The notes under the pieces were generated by a model. The model ran no database searches. It was not told where the DNA came from and saw only the letters and a program-made list of their open reading frames with translations. 64,000 nucleotides of DNA, taken from the NCBI RefSeq assembly GCF_056746865.1, contig NZ_CM163382.1. One strand, given 5' to 3'. Of the stretch, positions 3,451 to 9,502 are shown in pieces (the stretch's first letter is position 1; each line of letters starts with the position of its first letter). Position numbers and translations under genes: made by a program.

Positions 3451-5889
3451 TTAAAAATCAGCCTGACTCGGGATCAGTTTTTGCCAGATAACTGAAACGT
3501 ATTTTGCCTGGTAACGGGCGTCATCAAGTGCATTATGGCGCTCACCTTCGAATGGAATAGCCGTTCTGGCATCGAAGTCTATGGCTTTCCCCAGCTCAAC
3601 GATTGTGCGTACATCTCGATCGTTGTAGTAACGCCACGGGCAGGGGATCCCCTGCCGTTCGTATGAACGGCGCAAAATCGTGTTGTCGAAGTTGGCTCCA
3701 TTTCCCCAGACCTGAACAAAAAATTCACCGGAGTTTTCGTCGATAAATTCCCGCAATTGTAACAGTGCATCATCTAACGGGATTTCATCGGTCATAATGG
3801 CAGATTGCGCTTCGCGTGATTGCTTAAGCCACCATTTAATGGTGTCCCGATCAATGACCCCGCCAGCAGTTTCCAGATCGATAGTCTTACTAAATTCCGG
3901 TCCCATATCTCCGGTTTGCGGATCGAAAAATATTGCACCTATTGAGATGATCGGGGCATCAGGATTTTTTCCCATGGTTTCAAGGTCGATCATTAGATGG
4001 TCACACGTCCTGCTGGTGGATGTGATAACGTGATGACCGTTCACCGTAATTAAGGGATCTGCCGTCTCGCCAGTTTCACTATCGCTGGCGTGATCCTGAG
4101 CGCTGCCAGCATTCTCCTTGTGTGGATGTTCAGCGCCTTCCATTTCCTTCGGATCATTTTCCTGAACTTCAACCTGATTCTCTTCATCGAATGTTTCCTG
4201 GTATGTTGCGTCGCCCATCACCGCGCCACAATCAGGGCAGTTGCCGCCGCCGGTCTGACCGCAGGCGGTGCAGATCTTTTCCGGTTCCTGTTGCACTACT
4301 GGTTCAGGTTGTTTCGTTTCTGGCTCGTTTTGTAACGCATTTGGGCTGTTTTGTTCCGCTTTCTGGTCGTTCTGTTCCGATTCTTGCTGGTTCTGGTTTA
4401 CAGAATCGCGGGTTTCAATCCCCTTTACCCATTTCGGATCATTCGGGTCGCTAATCCCTGCAACAAATTCTCCGCGAGAGGCAGCAAGCAACTTATCGGC
4501 GTCAGGCTGGCTGATATTGGCTGCCTGCATAATTTTGTTTACTTCGTCAGCGGTAACTTTTACCTGTGACTTGTCATCCAGCGGCTGCGGGTCCTGATGA
4601 TGTTCAACTGTATCCGCTGCCATTGTTTCAGCCGTTGCCTGTTCATCTGCCATTGCGCCAGATGGTTGCGGGTTATCTTCATCATTTTTTTCTTCTTCTG
4701 TTTTGCACTCAGCAGCCAGTCCGCCGTTAATTTCTTCCAGGATATCTTTTTCCGGTGTATGCCGGGCAGCCATGAGCGTTTCAGCTGTGGGATTCTCGTG
4801 ATCAGTTTCTGTCAGGTTGGCATTGATATACCCCTGAAGGCGCCCCGGGTAGTGATAAAACTCAGGGTGGGCGCTTCGGATAAGTGCAAAAATAGCTGCG
4901 CGGGAATAGTCCAGGATACCAGGGGTTGCGCGAAGTGCTGCGGACCATTCCCTGAACGGACTTTCTTTTTTCAGGACGATTTCTTTTGCGCGACGATAAA
5001 CGCTGCCCGGAATTTCATAAATATTAAAATCCATCGGAAGTGTGGCTGCTGCAATCTCCACATCCAGCGCATCGAAGGTGTGTACTAAATTCGGATTGCG
5101 ATCGGTTTTGTTCCCGCCACCGGCATTTGCACCGGAAGCCGTACGGGTGATACGCGAAACACGATTTCCTTTCATCCACTCTTTTGTCAGCAGACCCCGA
5201 TCAGTGTAATCAGCGTCCAGGTATGCCTCGAAAAAAGCAGTTATCAGTCCCAGGTCTGAATTACCGGGATTAGGGAAAACTTTGTCAGTGTCGCGTACCA
5301 GTTTGTGAAGGTCGCGAATCTCCAGCGGGTCGAGCAGCTTTGTTTTGTGAGAAATGGCCAGGGCAGTAACAGCCGGCAGTTCTTCCGCCCGTGCTATATG
5401 TAATGCCTGAAGTTCTTCCCGTGCAACGTGCGTTACTGGTTTTTCGCTGCTGTGTTGCGCAAGCCAGCGAATGGGCAGCTCCTGACCAGAAACCGGCAGG
5501 AGCATATTCTCCTCAATCTCCGTCATGTCTTCGCCGTTGACGTTGGTATTGTCAGTACTGGCTGGTTTCTCCTGCACGGAGGGAGAGGGCGCGATAAATA
5601 CCATTGTAATGCCATCTTCCCCGCCTTTTTCGTATCGGTTGCAGAATTCGGTATCAAACACGCCTTCAGGTGGAAGGTCATTCACAACGGGTAAATGGAC
5701 GCGAACGGGTTTTTTAAAGTCGTCTTCATCATAATCGTTGTCATCCATTGCGGTAATGCAGCGGGAGATGGCAACAGATAATTTTTTTGCTGTAGTCCAG
5801 TAAAAACCACCTTTAATTCCCAGACGTTTTCTGACTTTGTCATTTTTTGCTTCGCAATATAGCGCAAATTCTTCTTTATCAGTGCTCAT
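3451..5889 (-). CDS. Large prophage exonuclease-like protein (DEDDh-type 3'-5' exonuclease C-terminal domain, acidic linker, Cys4 zinc ribbon)
   Basis: 812 aa; C-terminal motifs [23 protein letters not shown] resemble DnaQ-like Exo I/II/III; CTACG...CPDCG zinc ribbon; position equivalent to recE/exo in lambdoid early-left operons. Confidence 0.6.
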
Positions 5890-5981
5890 TGATAAACCTC
5901 ATTACAGATTTAAGGGTGAACAAATCCCTGCCATTGCTGGCATTTTTAATCCGTTGGTATGGTGTTAATATGGCTGGAGGG

Positions 5982-6170
5982 TTATCCAGCCGGTGTTTCG
6001 TTATTCAGGTACAGCGATACTTTTTTTACCGGGAGGCATTCACCAGAAATTTTTTGCTCGTCTCTTGCCTGGAGGCAGGATTCTTTACTGGCATAAATTC
6101 CGGTAATCACATTCTGTGATTCACCCGTTATAAGAAAAACCGTCATCATCAGTGCAAATGCTGAAGTCAT
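5982..6170 (-). CDS. ydfD: YdfD-like small protein
   Basis: 62-aa ORF immediately downstream of dicB-like gene, as in the Qin dicB operon; N-terminal hydrophobic stretch. Confidence 0.45.
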   Translation of the reverse strand: MTSAFALMMTVFLITGESQNVITGIYASKESCLQARDEQKISGECLPVKKVSLYLNNETPAG

Positions 6171-6355
6171 TGACGCTCTCCGAAAATACCAAGTTCAAGA
6201 AGAGCAATTCGGGAAAGTATGGAATTATCATTGAGCAGATAAGGCTCATATTTCCTCATATTAATGGCATCTTCAGTAAACTCCCGGTTACTGAGCAGAA
6301 CACCAATATCAAAACAACCTTCAGACGTATTAACGTTTGGTAATAACGTTTCCAT
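6167..6355 (-). CDS. dicB: DicB-like cell-division inhibitor
   Basis: 62 aa, METLLPNVNTSEGCFDIGV...FTEDAIN closely matches the DicB N-terminus as recalled; sits downstream of a DicF-like sRNA. Confidence 0.75.
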   Translation of the reverse strand: METLLPNVNTSEGCFDIGVLLSNREFTEDAINMRKYEPYLLNDNSILSRIALLELGIFGERQ

Positions 6356-6532
6356 TATCGCGTCCTCAACAATGAATTTTGTGATGCAGTGCCTGGTGCC
6401 TCCAGGTGACGTTAACCAGTTAACAATTAACGCCGGGTTAGTTGATGCTCGTTACGCCAGTAAAAGACCGCCTTACTGCTTTAACTGTTCCGCGTGCGCA
6501 TAGCCGCATTCACCGCATCACAAAATTCACTT

Positions 6533-6590
6533 TAAAAAGGGCGGCAGAGCAGTCACGGAGTAAAACTGATACCGCCAAACGTCACCAGAA
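6533..6590 (-). ncRNA. dicF: DicF small RNA (ftsZ-targeting sRNA) with intrinsic terminator
   Basis: Minus-strand sequence TTTCTGGTGACGTTTGGCGGTATCAGTTTTACTCCGTGACTGCTCTGCCGCCCTTTTT matches DicF as recalled; GC hairpin plus T-run; conserved position upstream of dicB. Confidence 0.75.
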
Positions 6591-6895
6591 AATTGATAAC
6601 AGAGGGCGTTGCAGCGGGGTTGTCACTTAAGCGTATGGTCAACCTGACAACCCGGTGTCCTCAACGGGGAAGGAATAACCCCGTCATACTTACCGCCGCG
6701 CCATTTCGCGGAGTGTCACAACCGGAAGCGCACGGTCGACGAAAATTTAACGACAGGCTATCTATGAACCAGCTACCTCGCCGTGCGCTTTCGCGTTATG
6801 GTCTGACTTTTCATGGAAATATCCTTTCAGTAAACTGTCAGTGCCGGATTCTTATCCGTGTCCGGCGCACGCACTCTACCTCACCTGTGAATAAA

Positions 6896-7270
6896 TTAAT
6901 GATTAATTGATATTTTGTTGTTTGATTCAACTTTCCCATCGGATGTGTGATGCTTTAAATCACAGGAATTAATACTGCTTGCTGTAAAATGATTTTCAAG
7001 GGGAGCTATTCGAATCCCTTTCTTTTTCATTAACAAGCCAAATCCTTTATTAATGATGTCCATTAATTCCAGAAAGTATTTTTCATGTAAATCCTGGTTA
7101 TCAGAGAGCTGCTTCTCTTCGTACAGCCCGATAAAGGCTCGGCGTACGTTACCGGATATATTGTCGATGGTTTCTTTTTCTACGGTACTCAGGTCAAGAG
7201 TCGCCAGTTGAGAGCGAACCACATTCGCTGCCATTTCCTGGAATGGCATTGGTAAATCTTTAAATTCCAT
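6896..7270 (-). CDS. Hypothetical protein, 124 aa
   Basis: ORF in the early-left operon between ydfC-like gene and dicF; no recognisable motif. Confidence 0.4.
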   Translation of the reverse strand: MEFKDLPMPFQEMAANVVRSQLATLDLSTVEKETIDNISGNVRRAFIGLYEEKQLSDNQDLHEKYFLELMDIINKGFGLLMKKKGIRIAPLENHFTASSINSCDLKHHTSDGKVESNNKISINH

Positions 7271-7292
7271 TATTAGCCTCGTTGGTTAGCTA

Positions 7293-7511
7293 TTAACGCG
7301 GGTATGTAATCATTCTGGCAATGCTTAATGCCGCTGCTTTTTCCAGCCTGGTGATATCCTGCTCCAGAGCGGACAGATTTTCAGCCTGCTTAGCCCTGGC
7401 TTCATTGGCCCATTTCAGGTCCTGCGCAGCCTTAATTTTCTGGTGTATCCACTCATAAAGTTCATCATCGGTATAGTCTGGCGCGATGATGACGGGTTCT
7501 CGTTTCTGCAT
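7293..7511 (-). CDS. ydfC: YdfC-like protein
   Basis: 72 aa; operon position after ydfA/ydfB homologues as in Qin. Confidence 0.5.
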   Translation of the reverse strand: MQKREPVIIAPDYTDDELYEWIHQKIKAAQDLKWANEARAKQAENLSALEQDITRLEKAAALSIARMITYPR

Positions 7512-7540
7512 ACTGATTCCTCGCGGTGCTGTTTCGCTTA

Positions 7541-7669
7541 TCAGCCGTTAGATTTTGCCGAACTGGAAAGCGCCTGTTTAAACTCACTGAAGCTGAGGGC
7601 TTCTTCGCCTTCGGCAAGGCCTTCGAAGTATTCTTCGTAAGCCTTTTCCATGATTGTGTTGAAATCCAT
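7541..7669 (-). CDS. ydfB: YdfB-like small protein (42 aa)
   Basis: Minus-strand ORF MDFNTIMEKAYEEYFEGLAEGEEALSFSEFKQALSSSAKSNG found by manual translation; below the 60-aa track cutoff. Confidence 0.5.
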   Translation of the reverse strand: MDFNTIMEKAYEEYFEGLAEGEEALSFSEFKQALSSSAKSNG

Positions 7670-7670
7670 A

Positions 7671-7826
7671 TCACTCACCTGAGTTTCTTTCCAGCCAGCG
7701 ACGGGCACCATTTTCGGTTTTAAACGTTTTGCTTTTGGTATACGTCATCGCGGTGAACGTACCGTCCTGGTTGGGGAACACGCCACATACCAGAGATTCG
7801 CTGTTGCCAAGATCGATAGTATCCAT
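7671..7826 (-). CDS. ydfA: YdfA-like small protein (51 aa)
   Basis: Internal Met of track ORF 7671..7907 (MDTIDLGNSESLV...); GAGG RBS upstream; first gene of the leftward early operon. Confidence 0.5.
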   Translation of the reverse strand: MDTIDLGNSESLVCGVFPNQDGTFTAMTYTKSKTFKTENGARRWLERNSGE

Positions 7827-8070
7827 GCTGACCTCATTTCCCCTTAACGCCGGGGTAGCGGAACAAAAACCTGCTGCATAGTTATTAAAGTTGAACCCTG
7901 CCGTCATGTTCTTACGCCTCGGGCTGGCTACTTAACCCCTGACCACTGCCGGGTAACTCGAAGTATTTCCCTGCGTTCTGTGGGGCGGGGTGGGTTGGTA
8001 TGTTGTTAATGTAACAAGAGTTACCTTTCGAGTCAATACAATGTTGCAAAAGGTACATTTGAGGGCATAA

Positions 8071-8095
8071 AAAACCCGCAATGAATGCGGGTTCT
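8071..8095 (-). terminator. Intrinsic terminator downstream of repressor gene
   Basis: Hairpin ACCCGCA-ttca-TGCGGGT followed by T-run on the minus strand, immediately 3' of cI stop. Confidence 0.5.
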
Positions 8096-8098
8096 GAC

Positions 8099-8872
8099 TC
8101 AGTCTAAGTATTGATGTATTTGTGAAACTTTACCTTTAATGGTGTAACCACCATTCAGTTCGATGGGTTTGTAAAGCGGATTCAGTGACAACAAATAGAT
8201 GTTTGGTCCGTCAATCGCAACTTTTTTTAGTGTTACGTTTGGCGTTCCTTCCAATTGGATTAAGATTATTTTTCCCACCAGTTCTCTAATGTTACTTGAG
8301 CATGGTGTGATCAGCACGGTAGATCCGTCGGGGATGGTTGGGAGGCCGTTAGAGTTTGTCATCGCATCTCCCTCAACATGCAATAAAAAAGAGTTTTCAG
8401 CGGTTTTTGTCATGACATCAACCCAGTTATTAATACCAGGAATCTTGGTTACTGGACAACTCATATCCCAATAACCAGCCTGTTCCCACGTTAAAACGGG
8501 CAACCGGGCGATGTTGTCACTAATGTAAGGGTACTGATTCAGACGCAGATCATCGGTTTTATCGTGACAGTCCTTTCCATAAAGAATCCATTCAGGAGAT
8601 TTGGAAAGCAATTTTGACAGTAGATACAAATTCTCACCGTCAGGTTTTGAAGAGCCATTTTCCCATTTTGTTACGGATACACGAGATATGCCGATTGCTT
8701 TCGCAACCTGCTGTTGGGTTAATCCAACGTCTTTTCGACGATTCCGAATACGTTCGCTGATAGTGTTTTTCATGTAACCAATGTTACTACCAAGTGATGT
8801 TGCTATGGTTGACATTGTTATGTAACTATTGTTACCCTTCTGCTCGAAATAACAGGAGAGTTTTATGTTCAA
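8099..8872 (-). CDS. cI: CI-like phage repressor (XRE HTH plus S24 LexA-like peptidase domain)
   Basis: HTH region GLTQQQVAKAIGISRVSVTKWENG; C-terminal S24-like region; divergent from cro-like gene; likely true start at ATG 8815 (MSTIATSLG). Confidence 0.85.
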   Translation of the reverse strand: MNIKLSCYFEQKGNNSYITMSTIATSLGSNIGYMKNTISERIRNRRKDVGLTQQQVAKAIGISRVSVTKWENGSSKPDGENLYLLSKLLSKSPEWILYGKDCHDKTDDLRLNQYPYISDNIARLPVLTWEQAGYWDMSCPVTKIPGINNWVDVMTKTAENSFLLHVEGDAMTNSNGLPTIPDGSTVLITPCSSNIRELVGKIILIQLEGTPNVTLKKVAIDGPNIYLLSLNPLYKPIELNGGYTIKGKVSQIHQYLD

Positions 8873-9080
8873 AGATGATGTTCTGCGCTATTTCAAAAAA
8901 AAGCGACTAGTAGCTGAGGCTCTTGGAATTTCACATGTGGCTGTTGTGCGGTGGAAAGCAGTTATTCCCAAACTTCGCGCAATGGAACTGGATGAAATTA
9001 CTAACGGTGAATTGAAATACAACCCAGAACTTTACAAGAAGCAGGATAGCACCTCGAACGAAGGAAAGAATGATTCATGA
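8865..9080 (+). CDS. cro: Cro-like HTH regulator
   Basis: 71 aa, LVAEALGISHVAVVRWK HTH; strong RBS AGGAGAG; divergent from cI. Confidence 0.7.
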   Translation: MFKDDVLRYFKKKRLVAEALGISHVAVVRWKAVIPKLRAMELDEITNGELKYNPELYKKQDSTSNEGKNDS

Positions 9081-9502
9081 AAATCAAGCATGAACACATC
9101 CGCATGGCGATGAATGTCTGGGCGCATCCGGACGGCGAAAAAGTACCGGCTGCGAAAATTACCAAAGCGTATTTCGAGCTGGGAATGACGTTCCCGGAAC
9201 TGTATGACGACAGCCATCCGGAAGCCCTGGCCCGTAATACCCAGAAAATTTTCCGTTGGCTGGATAAAGACACCCCTGATGCTGTTGAAAAAATGCAGGC
9301 TCTGTTACCGGCGATCGAAAAGGCGATGCCGCCTTTGCTGGTGGCCCGTATGCGCAGCCACAGTTCTGAATATTACCGTGAGATCGTCGAACGGAGGGAT
9401 CGGCTGGTGAAGGATGTCGATGATTTTGTTGCGTCAGCGGTTGTTTTGTATGACCAGATGAATCGCGGCGGCCCGGCAGGGAATGCTGTGGTGATGCACT
9501 AA
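9077..9502 (+). CDS. YdaT-like protein (CII-position regulator/toxin family)
   Basis: 141 aa starting MKIKHEHI, as Rac YdaT; ATGA overlap with cro stop. Confidence 0.55.
   Translation: MKIKHEHIRMAMNVWAHPDGEKVPAAKITKAYFELGMTFPELYDDSHPEALARNTQKIFRWLDKDTPDAVEKMQALLPAIEKAMPPLLVARMRSHSSEYYREIVERRDRLVKDVDDFVASAVVLYDQMNRGGPAGNAVVMH

What the first reader, a model, noticed from the sequence alone, without database searches (positions are those of the whole stretch)
7980..8060. Perfect 15-bp palindrome at the early-left promoter; related half-sites at the cI-cro divergent region
TTGTTAATGTAACAA (8003..8017) lies between the repressor terminator and the ydfA-like operon start. On the minus strand it overlaps a plausible -10 (TACATT), 17 nt downstream of a TTGACT -35. 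Related TTGTTA / TAAC half-sites recur at 8816..8840 next to cro. These are candidate operator sites for the CI-like repressor.
Basis: seen in the sequence. Interest (0 to 1): 0.3.

Follow-up and report, generated by a model that had tools for sequence, protein, structure and literature searches.

The report
Prophage repressor operators, dyad mis-drawn
The flagged sequence sits on the early-left promoter of an E. coli lambdoid prophage, but the real repressor-binding motif is an overlapping P22-type dyad (GTAAC-N4-GTTAC), an ordinary genetic switch of a well-known kind.

Summary
The sequence TTGTTAATGTAACAA is at 8003-8017. It is not a perfect 15-bp palindrome. It has 6-bp arms around a non-symmetric 3-nt spacer, and 31 such 6-3-6 repeats occur in the window. 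Its left arm is not conserved in relatives.

The conserved element is GTAAC-N4-GTTAC. It has exactly three perfect copies in 64 kb (0.02 expected by chance). One lies on pL (8011-8024). Two lie between cI and cro (8774-8787 and 8822-8835). A degenerate copy sits upstream of the pL -35 (8043-8056).

Half-sites are invariant in about 80 close relatives while the central 4 bp and the flanks vary. The same dyad occupies the same registers in prophages of seven other genera whose CI keeps the recognition helix SRVSVTKWE. Phages with a different helix (mEp390, P22/21) have different half-sites at the same positions.

The layout copies the annotated phage 21/P22 operators. This is a new specificity class of a known kind, and binding is untested.

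Side finding: this CI has Ala at the S24 nucleophile position.

The parts
8003..8017 (.). It has 6-bp arms and a 3-nt spacer. Only its right part, which overlaps OL1, is conserved.
8009..8026 (.). OL1, an 18-bp P22-type operator ATGTAAC-AAGA-GTTACCT (core GTAAC-N4-GTTAC at 8011-8024). It lies between the -35 and -10 of pL and supplies the TAC of the -10.
   Evidence: It scores 22.5 bits with a weight matrix (PWM) built only from distant relatives. It is an exact motif match. Both half-sites are unchanged in 79 of 80 close relatives (the exception is L013), and the GTTAC half in 80 of 80, while the central 4 bp vary.
8008..8013 (-). pL -10 hexamer TACATT (TACCTT in 79 of 80 relatives, because T8010 is G there).
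8031..8036 (-). pL -35 hexamer TTGACT.
   Evidence: It is changed in only 1 of 45 haplotypes (2 of 80 loci) among close relatives. A TTGAC element sits in the same place in distant relatives.
8041..8058 (.). OL2, a weaker operator ATGTTGC-AAAA-GGTACAT (core 8043-8056). It lies upstream of the pL -35, 32 bp from OL1.
   Evidence: It is the fourth-best PWM hit in the window at 11.6 bits; the next hit scores 6.4. Distant relatives and phage 21 have a second OL site 34-35 bp from OL1.
8066..8095 (-). Intrinsic terminator of the cI transcript: a hairpin followed by a U6 run.
8099..8773 (-). The cI-like repressor gene (HTH_3 plus Peptidase_S24). The likely true start is the ATG at 8773 (MKNTISER...); NCBI's annotation pipeline (PGAP) places the start at 8815. 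The recognition helix is SRVSVTKWE. Ala137 replaces the S24 nucleophile Ser.
8772..8789 (.). OR3, the cI-proximal operator ATGTAAC-CAAT-GTTACTA (core 8774-8787). It abuts the cI ATG. It probably overlaps a PRM -10 (TAACAT, 8786-8781, minus strand); that part is inferred.
   Evidence: Exact motif, 21.2 bits. It occupies the same register, -16 from the ATG, in 13 of 14 loci across genera and -17 in L091. This is the position of the cI-proximal operator of phage 21.
8797..8814 (.). Possible weak OR2, ATGTTGC-TATG-GTTGACA (core 8799-8812). It overlaps the pR -35.
   Evidence: It scores below zero in the window. A site at the same register (-41) scores 2.5-11.6 bits in 7 of 14 relatives. Positions 8801 and 8802 vary among close relatives. 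This site is inconclusive.
8809..8814 (+). pR -35 hexamer TTGACA.
   Evidence: Read from the sequence. It is invariant in 80 close relatives.
8820..8837 (.). OR1, the cro-proximal operator ATGTAAC-TATT-GTTACCC (core 8822-8835). It covers the pR spacer and the inferred -10 TACCCT (8833-8838, preceded by TG).
   Evidence: It is the best PWM hit in the window at 24.0 bits. Positions 8820-8835 are invariant in nearly all of the 80 relatives, and the core 8822-8835 in all of them. It sits at register -64 in 13 of 14 loci and -65 in L091. The pR -10 is inferred by homology with pL; the promoter scan did not call it.
8865..9080 (+). The cro gene (P22_Cro family). It is the presumed second reader of the same operators.

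Best explanation
The region holds the left operator and promoter of a lambdoid E. coli prophage whose immunity module is built like that of P22 and phage 21.

- **Recognition element.** A dimer of the CI-like repressor (HTH_3 plus S24, recognition helix SRVSVTKWE) reads an 18-bp dyad with core GTAAC-N4-GTTAC. By analogy with P22, the central 4 bp are not contacted.
- **At pL.** OL1 (8009-8026) fills the spacer and the start of the -10 of pL (TTGACT-17-TACATT, leftward). OL2 (8041-8058) lies just upstream of the -35. Bound repressor would exclude RNA polymerase and shut off the ydfA-ydfB-ydfC-dicF-dicB-exo-xis-int operon.
- **At the cI-cro region.** OR1 (8820-8837) covers pR in the same way. 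OR3 (8772-8789) abuts the cI start codon and probably the PRM -10, which would give negative autoregulation. A degenerate OR2 may lie between them.
- **Cro.** Cro (P22_Cro family) presumably reads the same sites.
TTGTTA-N3-TAACAA is a chance extension of OL1's left half-site into the pL discriminator. It is not the recognition element.

Shown here: motif statistics, phylogenetic footprint, positional homology, and covariation of helix with half-site. Inferred: actual binding, cooperativity, order of site occupancy, the position of PRM, and a leaderless cI mRNA.
For: 1. GTAAC-N4-GTTAC has three exact copies in 64 kb against 0.02 expected, and all lie at pL or between cI and cro.
2. A PWM built only from 12 relatives with at most 70% CI identity ranks 8820, 8009, 8772 and 8041 as the top four 18-mers of the window (24.0, 22.5, 21.2 and 11.6 bits; the next scores 6.4).
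3. In 80 IMG/VR relatives (87-100% CI identity) the half-sites are essentially invariant, while the central 4 bp, the flanks and both TTGTTA copies vary.
4. CI homologues down to 43% identity, from Salmonella, Hamiltonella, Kosakonia, Edwardsiella, Citrobacter and Erwinia, have an invariant helix SRVSVTKWE. The isolated phages Pectobacterium ZF40, Klebsiella phi12.2 and Pantoea AH07 keep SRV(S/T)(V/I)TKWE. All carry GTAAC-N4-GKTAC at fixed registers of -64 and -16 from the cI ATG (one base off in L091) and flanking a TTGAC -35 downstream of cI.
5. Covariation:
   - mEp390 CI (NRVTVTGWE) has GTA(G/A)G-N4-C(C/T)TAC at the same positions.
   - Phage 21/P22 (SNVAISQWE) has TTAAG-N4-CTTAA.
   - The residue before the Trp is K/R, G/G and Q/Q in the CI/Cro pairs of the three classes.
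6. The annotated phage 21 operators are 18 bp long. The cI-proximal one abuts the ATG, the outer OR sites are 48 bp apart, and OL1 to OL2 is 35 bp with OL1 just after TTGACC. This is the same layout.
7. P22 repressor binds an 18-bp site and does not contact its central 4 bp (PMC4267663).
8. CI matches lambda CI (E 2e-14) and the P22 C2 N-terminal domain (E 1e-12) among solved structures.
Against: - No binding data exist for this immunity type. Nothing was found in the searched literature.
- OR2 is degenerate in the window, scoring below zero. A tripartite OR is therefore not established.
- The pR -10 (TACCCT) is weak and was not called by the promoter scan.
- OR3 abuts the ATG. The geometry of any PRM activation from OR2 (centre about -31) therefore differs from lambda's -42 and is unexplained.
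- The outer positions of the 18-mer are asymmetric (A[G/T]GTAAC versus GTTAC[A/C][T/C]) and overlap promoter elements. The 18-bp extent rests on the P22 analogy. The 14-bp core is what the data show.
Confidence: 0.85

Rival explanations
1. The reader's dyad TTGTTA-N3-TAACAA (8003-8017) is itself the operator, with TTGTTA/TAAC half-sites repeated next to cro.
For: The inverted repeat exists and overlaps the pL -10. TTGTTA occurs at 8003, 8815 and 8829. Most close relatives keep both arms at pL.
Against: - It is not a perfect palindrome, and repeats of this size occur about once per 290 bp.
- It has no second copy, even with one mismatch.
- The left arm is changed in 15 of 45 haplotypes. The 8815 copy is changed in 20 of 26.
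- It is absent from every distant relative that shares the recognition helix.
- A 3-nt spacer with 6-bp arms does not fit the P22-type 18-bp geometry.
Confidence: 0.05
2. The dyad at 8003-8017 is a site for a different regulator, such as the CII-like YdaT protein, Cro alone or a host factor, superimposed on OL1.
For: CP-933P YdaT binds an inverted repeat, TTGATT-N6-AATCAA, that looks superficially similar (PMC9986795). The window encodes a YdaT homologue.
Against: - The YdaT-type repeat sits where it is expected, at the cro stop/ydaT start. It is 9070-9087, ATGATTCATGAAAATCAA, with one mismatch.
- The 8003 dyad has different half-sites and N3 rather than N6 spacing.
- Its left arm is not conserved.
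- No LexA-box-like site lies here.
Confidence: 0.05
3. The GTAAC-N4-GTTAC copies are chance or promoter-derived similarity rather than protein-binding sites. For example, they could be conserved only because TAC forms the start of the -10.
For: The right half-site overlaps the -10 at pL and pR. OR3 overlaps the cI start.
Against: Both half-sites are conserved, not only the one in the -10. The dyad is kept at OL2-type sites upstream of the -35, where there is no -10. The half-site changes together with the recognition helix in mEp390 and P22/21. Chance expectation is 0.02 copies.
Confidence: 0.05

Closest known systems
Phage P22 / phage 21 immC operators (C2 repressor and Cro; OR1-3, OL1-3)
   Same: - The repressor fold is the same. 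The HTH matches the P22 C2 N-terminal domain at E 1e-12, and Cro is of the P22_Cro family.
- The operators are 18-bp dyads with a 4-bp centre.
- The cI-proximal operator abuts the ATG.
- The outer OR sites are 48 bp apart.
- OL1 lies between the -35 and -10 of pL, and OL2 lies 32-35 bp away.
   Different: - The half-site is GTAAC rather than TTAAG.
- The recognition helix is SRVSVTKWE rather than SNVAISQWE.
- CI identity is only about 36%.
- There is no room for an OL3, because the terminator follows OL2 directly.
- OR2 is degenerate.
- CI has Ala at the nucleophile position.
- The pL operon is of the dicB type and has no N gene.
Phage lambda OR/OL with CI and Cro
   Same: - Divergent PRM and pR, plus a distant pL, are controlled by repeated dyads.
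- The repressor is an HTH domain joined to a LexA-like domain (E 2e-14 to PDB entry 3bdn).
- A terminator lies between cI and OL.
   Different: - Lambda operators are 17 bp with a different sequence.
- Lambda OR3 ends 10 bp from the cI ATG (from my own knowledge of the lambda sequence), whereas here it abuts the ATG.
- The lambda HTH belongs to a different subfamily.
CP-933P cryptic prophage switch (PaaR2 / YdaS / YdaT)
   Same: - It has a cro of the YdaS/P22_Cro type followed by a CII-like YdaT.
- A YdaT-type repeat lies at the cro/ydaT junction.
- paaR2 is leaderless, and cI may be leaderless here.
   Different: - The CI equivalent there is PaaR2, and the operator consensus is GTTTAGTAA (PMC8630535).
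- It is a different immunity specificity and is not homologous at the repressor level.
Qin prophage DicA/DicC control of the dicB operon
   Same: The regulated leftward operon is the same: ydfA-ydfB-ydfC-dicF-dicB.
   Different: In Qin the repressor is DicA, a short HTH protein without an S24 domain, acting at its own operator (from my own knowledge). Here a CI/C2-type repressor and P22-type operators take that place.

Membership tests
P22 C2 / lambda CI-type lambdoid immunity switch | The repressor has an N-terminal Cro/C1-type HTH and a C-terminal LexA-like S24 domain. | tested here: met
   HTH_3 at 3.8e-17 and Peptidase_S24 at 2.1e-16. Lambda CI at 2e-14 and the P22 C2 N-terminal domain at 1e-12.
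P22 C2 / lambda CI-type lambdoid immunity switch | An intact Ser/Lys catalytic dyad and an Ala-Gly cleavage site, which allow RecA-stimulated self-cleavage (inducibility). | tested here: not met
   The residue aligned with lambda Ser149 is Ala (GDAMTN) in the window, in 74 of 80 close relatives and in Salmonella L082. Distant relatives have Ser. The Lys (TLKKV) and the QAG site are present.
P22 C2 / lambda CI-type lambdoid immunity switch | The same dyad-symmetric operator is repeated at pL and in the cI-cro divergent region, and is rare elsewhere. | tested here: met
   Three exact GTAAC-N4-GTTAC copies, all in the immunity region, against 0.02 expected. The top four PWM hits are all in that region.
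P22 C2 / lambda CI-type lambdoid immunity switch | The operators overlap the -35/-10 elements of the early promoters. | tested here: met
   OL1 lies between TTGACT and TACATT of pL. OR1 lies after TTGACA of pR. The pR -10 is inferred only.
P22 C2 / lambda CI-type lambdoid immunity switch | A tripartite OR, with three sites about 24 bp apart. | tested here: inconclusive
   OR1 and OR3 are 48 bp apart in all 14 loci. A middle site at -41 scores above zero in 7 of 14 relatives but not in the window.
P22/21 operator architecture specifically | An 18-bp site with a variable, non-contacted, A/T-rich central 4 bp, in positions homologous to the annotated phage 21 operators. | tested here: met
   The central 4 bp vary while the half-sites do not. 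The positions match the phage 21 annotation. The P22 geometry comes from PMC4267663.
P22/21 immunity specificity (imm21/immC) | Half-site ATTTAAG and recognition helix SNVAISQWE. | tested here: not met
   The half-site here is GTAAC and the helix is SRVSVTKWE. This is a different specificity class.
Operator in the strict sense | Demonstrated binding by the cognate repressor, and repression of the promoter. | not testable with these tools
   This needs EMSA, footprinting or reporter assays. No published data were found.

The most novel reading that the evidence does not exclude
The module may be an SOS-blind, domesticated switch. A CI whose S24 nucleophile is Ala cannot self-cleave, so it would hold pL permanently off through OL1 and OL2. 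pL drives the cell-division inhibitors dicF and dicB as well as exo, xis and int. The lineage is widespread, with about 700 complete E. coli genomes carrying it. Under this reading the operators serve host-level control of DicF/DicB rather than prophage induction. The window-specific T8010 (-10 TACATT instead of TACCTT) would be a promoter-up variant of that control point.
Probability: 0.2. Interest if true: 0.45.

Novelty: new member of a known kind. Interest (0 to 1): 0.22.

Why it matters
- **Annotation.** It defines, by comparative evidence, the operator specificity (GTAAC-N4-GKTAC) of an immunity group found in about 700 complete E. coli genomes. The same group occurs in prophages and phages of at least seven other enterobacterial genera, including ZF40 and AH07. 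This is useful for annotating these prophages and for predicting superinfection immunity.
- **Specificity code.** Together with mEp390 and P22/21 it gives a small natural series linking helix to half-site. The residue before the conserved Trp is K/R, G or Q, and it tracks the inner half-site base. This series could be tested directly.
- **Limit.** It does not reveal a new mechanism.

Tried and rejected
- **YdaT site hypothesis.** The YdaT-type repeat lies at 9070-9087 instead, and the 8003 dyad does not resemble it.
- **LexA boxes.** CTGT-N8-ACAG gave two GC-rich hits far from the region, no more than chance.
- **Rfam scan of 5800-9200.** It found only DicF, a sub-threshold STnc100 hit and a spurious Trp-leader hit on the cI terminator. 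Nothing lay at the finding itself.
- **Literature.** Searches for ZF40 operators, for the GTAAC/GTTAC motif and for the position of P22 PRM found no description of this operator class.
- **First related-loci scan.** It returned only relatives of 87% identity or more. Distant relatives had to be fetched one protein at a time.
- **Promoter scan.** It did not call pR. Its -10 is assigned only by homology with pL and with relatives.
- **PRM.** I could not place PRM with confidence. A TAACAT -10 inside OR3 would give a leaderless cI mRNA, but this is an inference.

Full report
**Context.** The window carries a lambdoid prophage of E. coli inserted next to potC.
- The leftward genes are int, xis, exo, DUF1482, dicB, DicF RNA (6539-6590, Rfam 76.7 bits), orf124, ydfC, ydfB and ydfA (DUF1391).
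- Next comes a CI-like repressor gene on the minus strand. After it, rightward, come cro (P22_Cro family), a YdaT-family CII-like gene and O/P-like replication genes.
- The 1.45-kb immunity region occurs at 80% coverage or more in 701 of 5,426 complete E. coli genomes. It is absent from the INPHARED collection of isolated phages.

**The observation.**
- TTGTTAATGTAACAA is at 8003-8017, but it is not a perfect palindrome. Its reverse complement is TTGTTACATTAACAA, so only the 6-bp arms pair, across the spacer ATG.
- Perfect 6-3-6 inverted repeats occur 31 times in the window. Repeats with 6-bp arms and any spacer of 0-8 occur 222 times.
- The specific pattern has no second copy even with one mismatch.
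TTGACT(8036-8031)-17-TACATT(8013-8008) on the minus strand, with TG upstream of the -10, is the only such hit in 7600-9200.
- A strong terminator hairpin for cI lies at about 8066-8095.

**The real motif.**
- GTAAC-N4-GTTAC has exactly three perfect copies in 64 kb, at 8011, 8774 and 8822. The expectation is 0.02, and 0 of 100 shuffles reach three.
- The copies at 8011 (read on the minus strand) and 8822 (plus strand) are 13/14 identical (I4). They occupy the same place in their promoters:
  - pL: TTGACT-cgaaag-GTAACTCTTGTTAC-ATT
  - pR: TTGACA-ttgttat-GTAACTATTGTTAC-CCT
- The terminal TAC of the operator begins the -10 in both.

**Phylogenetic footprint among close relatives.** The data are 80 IMG/VR loci at 87-100% CI identity.

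| Segment | Coordinates | Changed in relatives |
|---|---|---|
| OL1 half-site GTAAC | 8011-8015 | 1 of 80 loci |
| OL1 half-site GTTAC | 8020-8024 | 0 of 80 loci |
| OL1 central 4 bp | 8016-8019 | 8 of 80 loci |
| Flank after OL1 | 8025-8030 | 23 of 80 loci |
| OR1 core | 8822-8835 | none |

- Both -35 hexamers are conserved. The pR -35 is invariant, and the pL -35 is changed in 2 of 80 loci.
- T8010 is G in 79 of 80 relatives. The window's -10 is therefore TACATT, where almost all relatives have TACCTT.

**Distant relatives.**
- CI homologues down to 43% identity keep the helix R45-E52 (SRVSVTKWE) invariant. They start at the Met equivalent to ATG 8773. P22 C2 aligns from that Met as well. 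The true cI start is therefore probably 8773, not the annotated 8815.
- I fetched contigs from Salmonella, an unnamed metagenome, Hamiltonella, Kosakonia, E. coli, Edwardsiella, Citrobacter and Erwinia. I also fetched the isolated phages ZF40, Klebsiella ST13-OXA48phi12.2 and Pantoea AH07.
- All carry GTAAC-N4-G(T/G)TAC immediately before the cI ATG and again 48 bp further towards cro. Most carry one or two more copies flanking a TTGAC -35 just past the cI terminator.
- A PWM made only from these relatives ranks the window's 18-mers as 8820 (24.0 bits), 8009 (22.5), 8772 (21.2) and 8041 (11.6). The next scores 6.4.
- The registers are fixed at -64 and -16 in 13 of 14 loci, and one base off in L091. 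A weaker middle site at -41 scores positively in 7 of 14 relatives but not in the window.

**Covariation.**
- mEp390 has the helix NRVTVTGWE. It has GTA(G/A)G-N4-C(C/T)TAC at the same positions, including abutting its ATG.
- Phage 21/P22 has the helix SNVAISQWE. Its annotated 18-bp operators are ATTTAAG-N4-CTTAAAT. The layout is the same: the cI-proximal site abuts the ATG, the outer OR sites are 48 bp apart, and OL1 follows TTGACC with OL2 35 bp away.
- The Cro proteins change in parallel. The residue before the conserved Trp, in CI/Cro, is K/R in the GTAAC class, G/G in mEp390 and Q/Q in P22/21.
- P22 repressor binds an 18-bp site, contacting positions 2-7 and 12-17 but not the central four (PMC4267663). 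This matches the variable centre seen here.

**Mechanism (inferred).**
- CI dimers at OL1 and OL2 occlude pL and silence the dicB-type operon.
- CI at OR1, and perhaps at a weak OR2, occludes pR.
- OR3 abuts the cI ATG. Its conserved centre ATTG creates TAACAT 7-8 nt upstream of the A of the ATG. That is compatible with a PRM -10 and a leaderless cI mRNA, as in lambda and CP-933P paaR2.
- Occupancy of OR3 would then autorepress cI.
- The geometry of any activation from OR2 is unresolved.

**Rivals.**
- A YdaT site is excluded. The YdaT-type repeat TTGATT-N6-AATCAA (PMC9986795) is at 9070-9087 with one mismatch, at the cro/ydaT junction where it is expected.
- No LexA box lies in the region.

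**Comparison and novelty.** This is a P22/21-type immunity switch with a distinct operator specificity. I found no published description of that specificity. The CP-933P operators are different, with consensus GTTTAGTAA.

**Side observations.**
- CI has Ala at the S24 nucleophile position.
- Relatives carry a covarying structured RNA in the pL leader that matches no Rfam family.
- The terminator of L088/L089 embeds an operator-like sequence.

Noticed in passing
window 8099-8773 (-), codon for residue 137 of the 224-aa form (GDAMTN): The CI-like repressor has Ala where lambda CI has the catalytic Ser149 of the S24 domain. 74 of 80 close relatives and a Salmonella homologue share Ala. 6 of 80 close relatives and all distant relatives have Ser. 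The Lys and the QAG cleavage site are kept. This predicts a repressor that cannot self-cleave and is not induced by the SOS response.
   Followed up: partly
window 9070-9087: ATGATTCATGAAAATCAA matches the experimentally defined YdaT operator TTGATT-N6-AATCAA of CP-933P with one mismatch. It lies at the cro stop/ydaT start, the homologous position. It is probably the CII-like (pRE-type) control site.
   Followed up: partly
window 6539-6590 (-): A DicF sRNA is present (Rfam RF00039, 76.7 bits). The pL operon is therefore a Qin-like dicB operon (ydfA-ydfB-ydfC-orf124-dicF-dicB), but it is governed by a CI/C2-type repressor instead of DicA.
   Followed up: partly
window 8010: T8010 is G in 79 of 80 related loci. 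The window's pL -10 is TACATT, closer to consensus and the same as in distant relatives. Nearly all close relatives have TACCTT.
   Followed up: partly
L088:3270-3355, L089, L092:3276-3361, L094 (ZF40):1940-2025, L097:1958-2043, L091:3362-3447; the partial 5' remnant in the window is near 7905-7935 (-): The pL leaders of distant relatives share an element of about 70 nt: GCGAACAGGCAGGACGCCCACGAAGTAGCCGC-[hairpin]-GATGATTCGC. It has compensatory changes in the hairpin (CCACC/GGTGG, CTACC/GGTAG, CCCGA/TCGGG) and in the outer helix; 7 of 16 pairs show double changes. It has no Rfam match and is unannotated in ZF40, ST64B, SfV, YeP2 and phiNP. It could be a put- or nut-like antitermination RNA or an sRNA.
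   Followed up: partly
window 8774-8815 (-): The annotated cI start (8815, MSTIATSLGSNIGY...) would put OR3 and OR2 inside the coding sequence. Distant homologues and P22 C2 begin at the Met encoded at 8773, which is invariant. The 14-codon extension is probably an ORF-calling artefact created by the pR -35 (TTGACAT read backwards gives ATGTCAA).
   Followed up: partly
L088/L089 3173-3186: In the 44%-identity E. coli relative, the cI terminator hairpin (AGCCAAAG-TTAC-CTTTGGCT followed by a T run) contains an operator-like GTAGCCAAAGTTAC. This may be an OL3 fused to the terminator.
   Followed up: no
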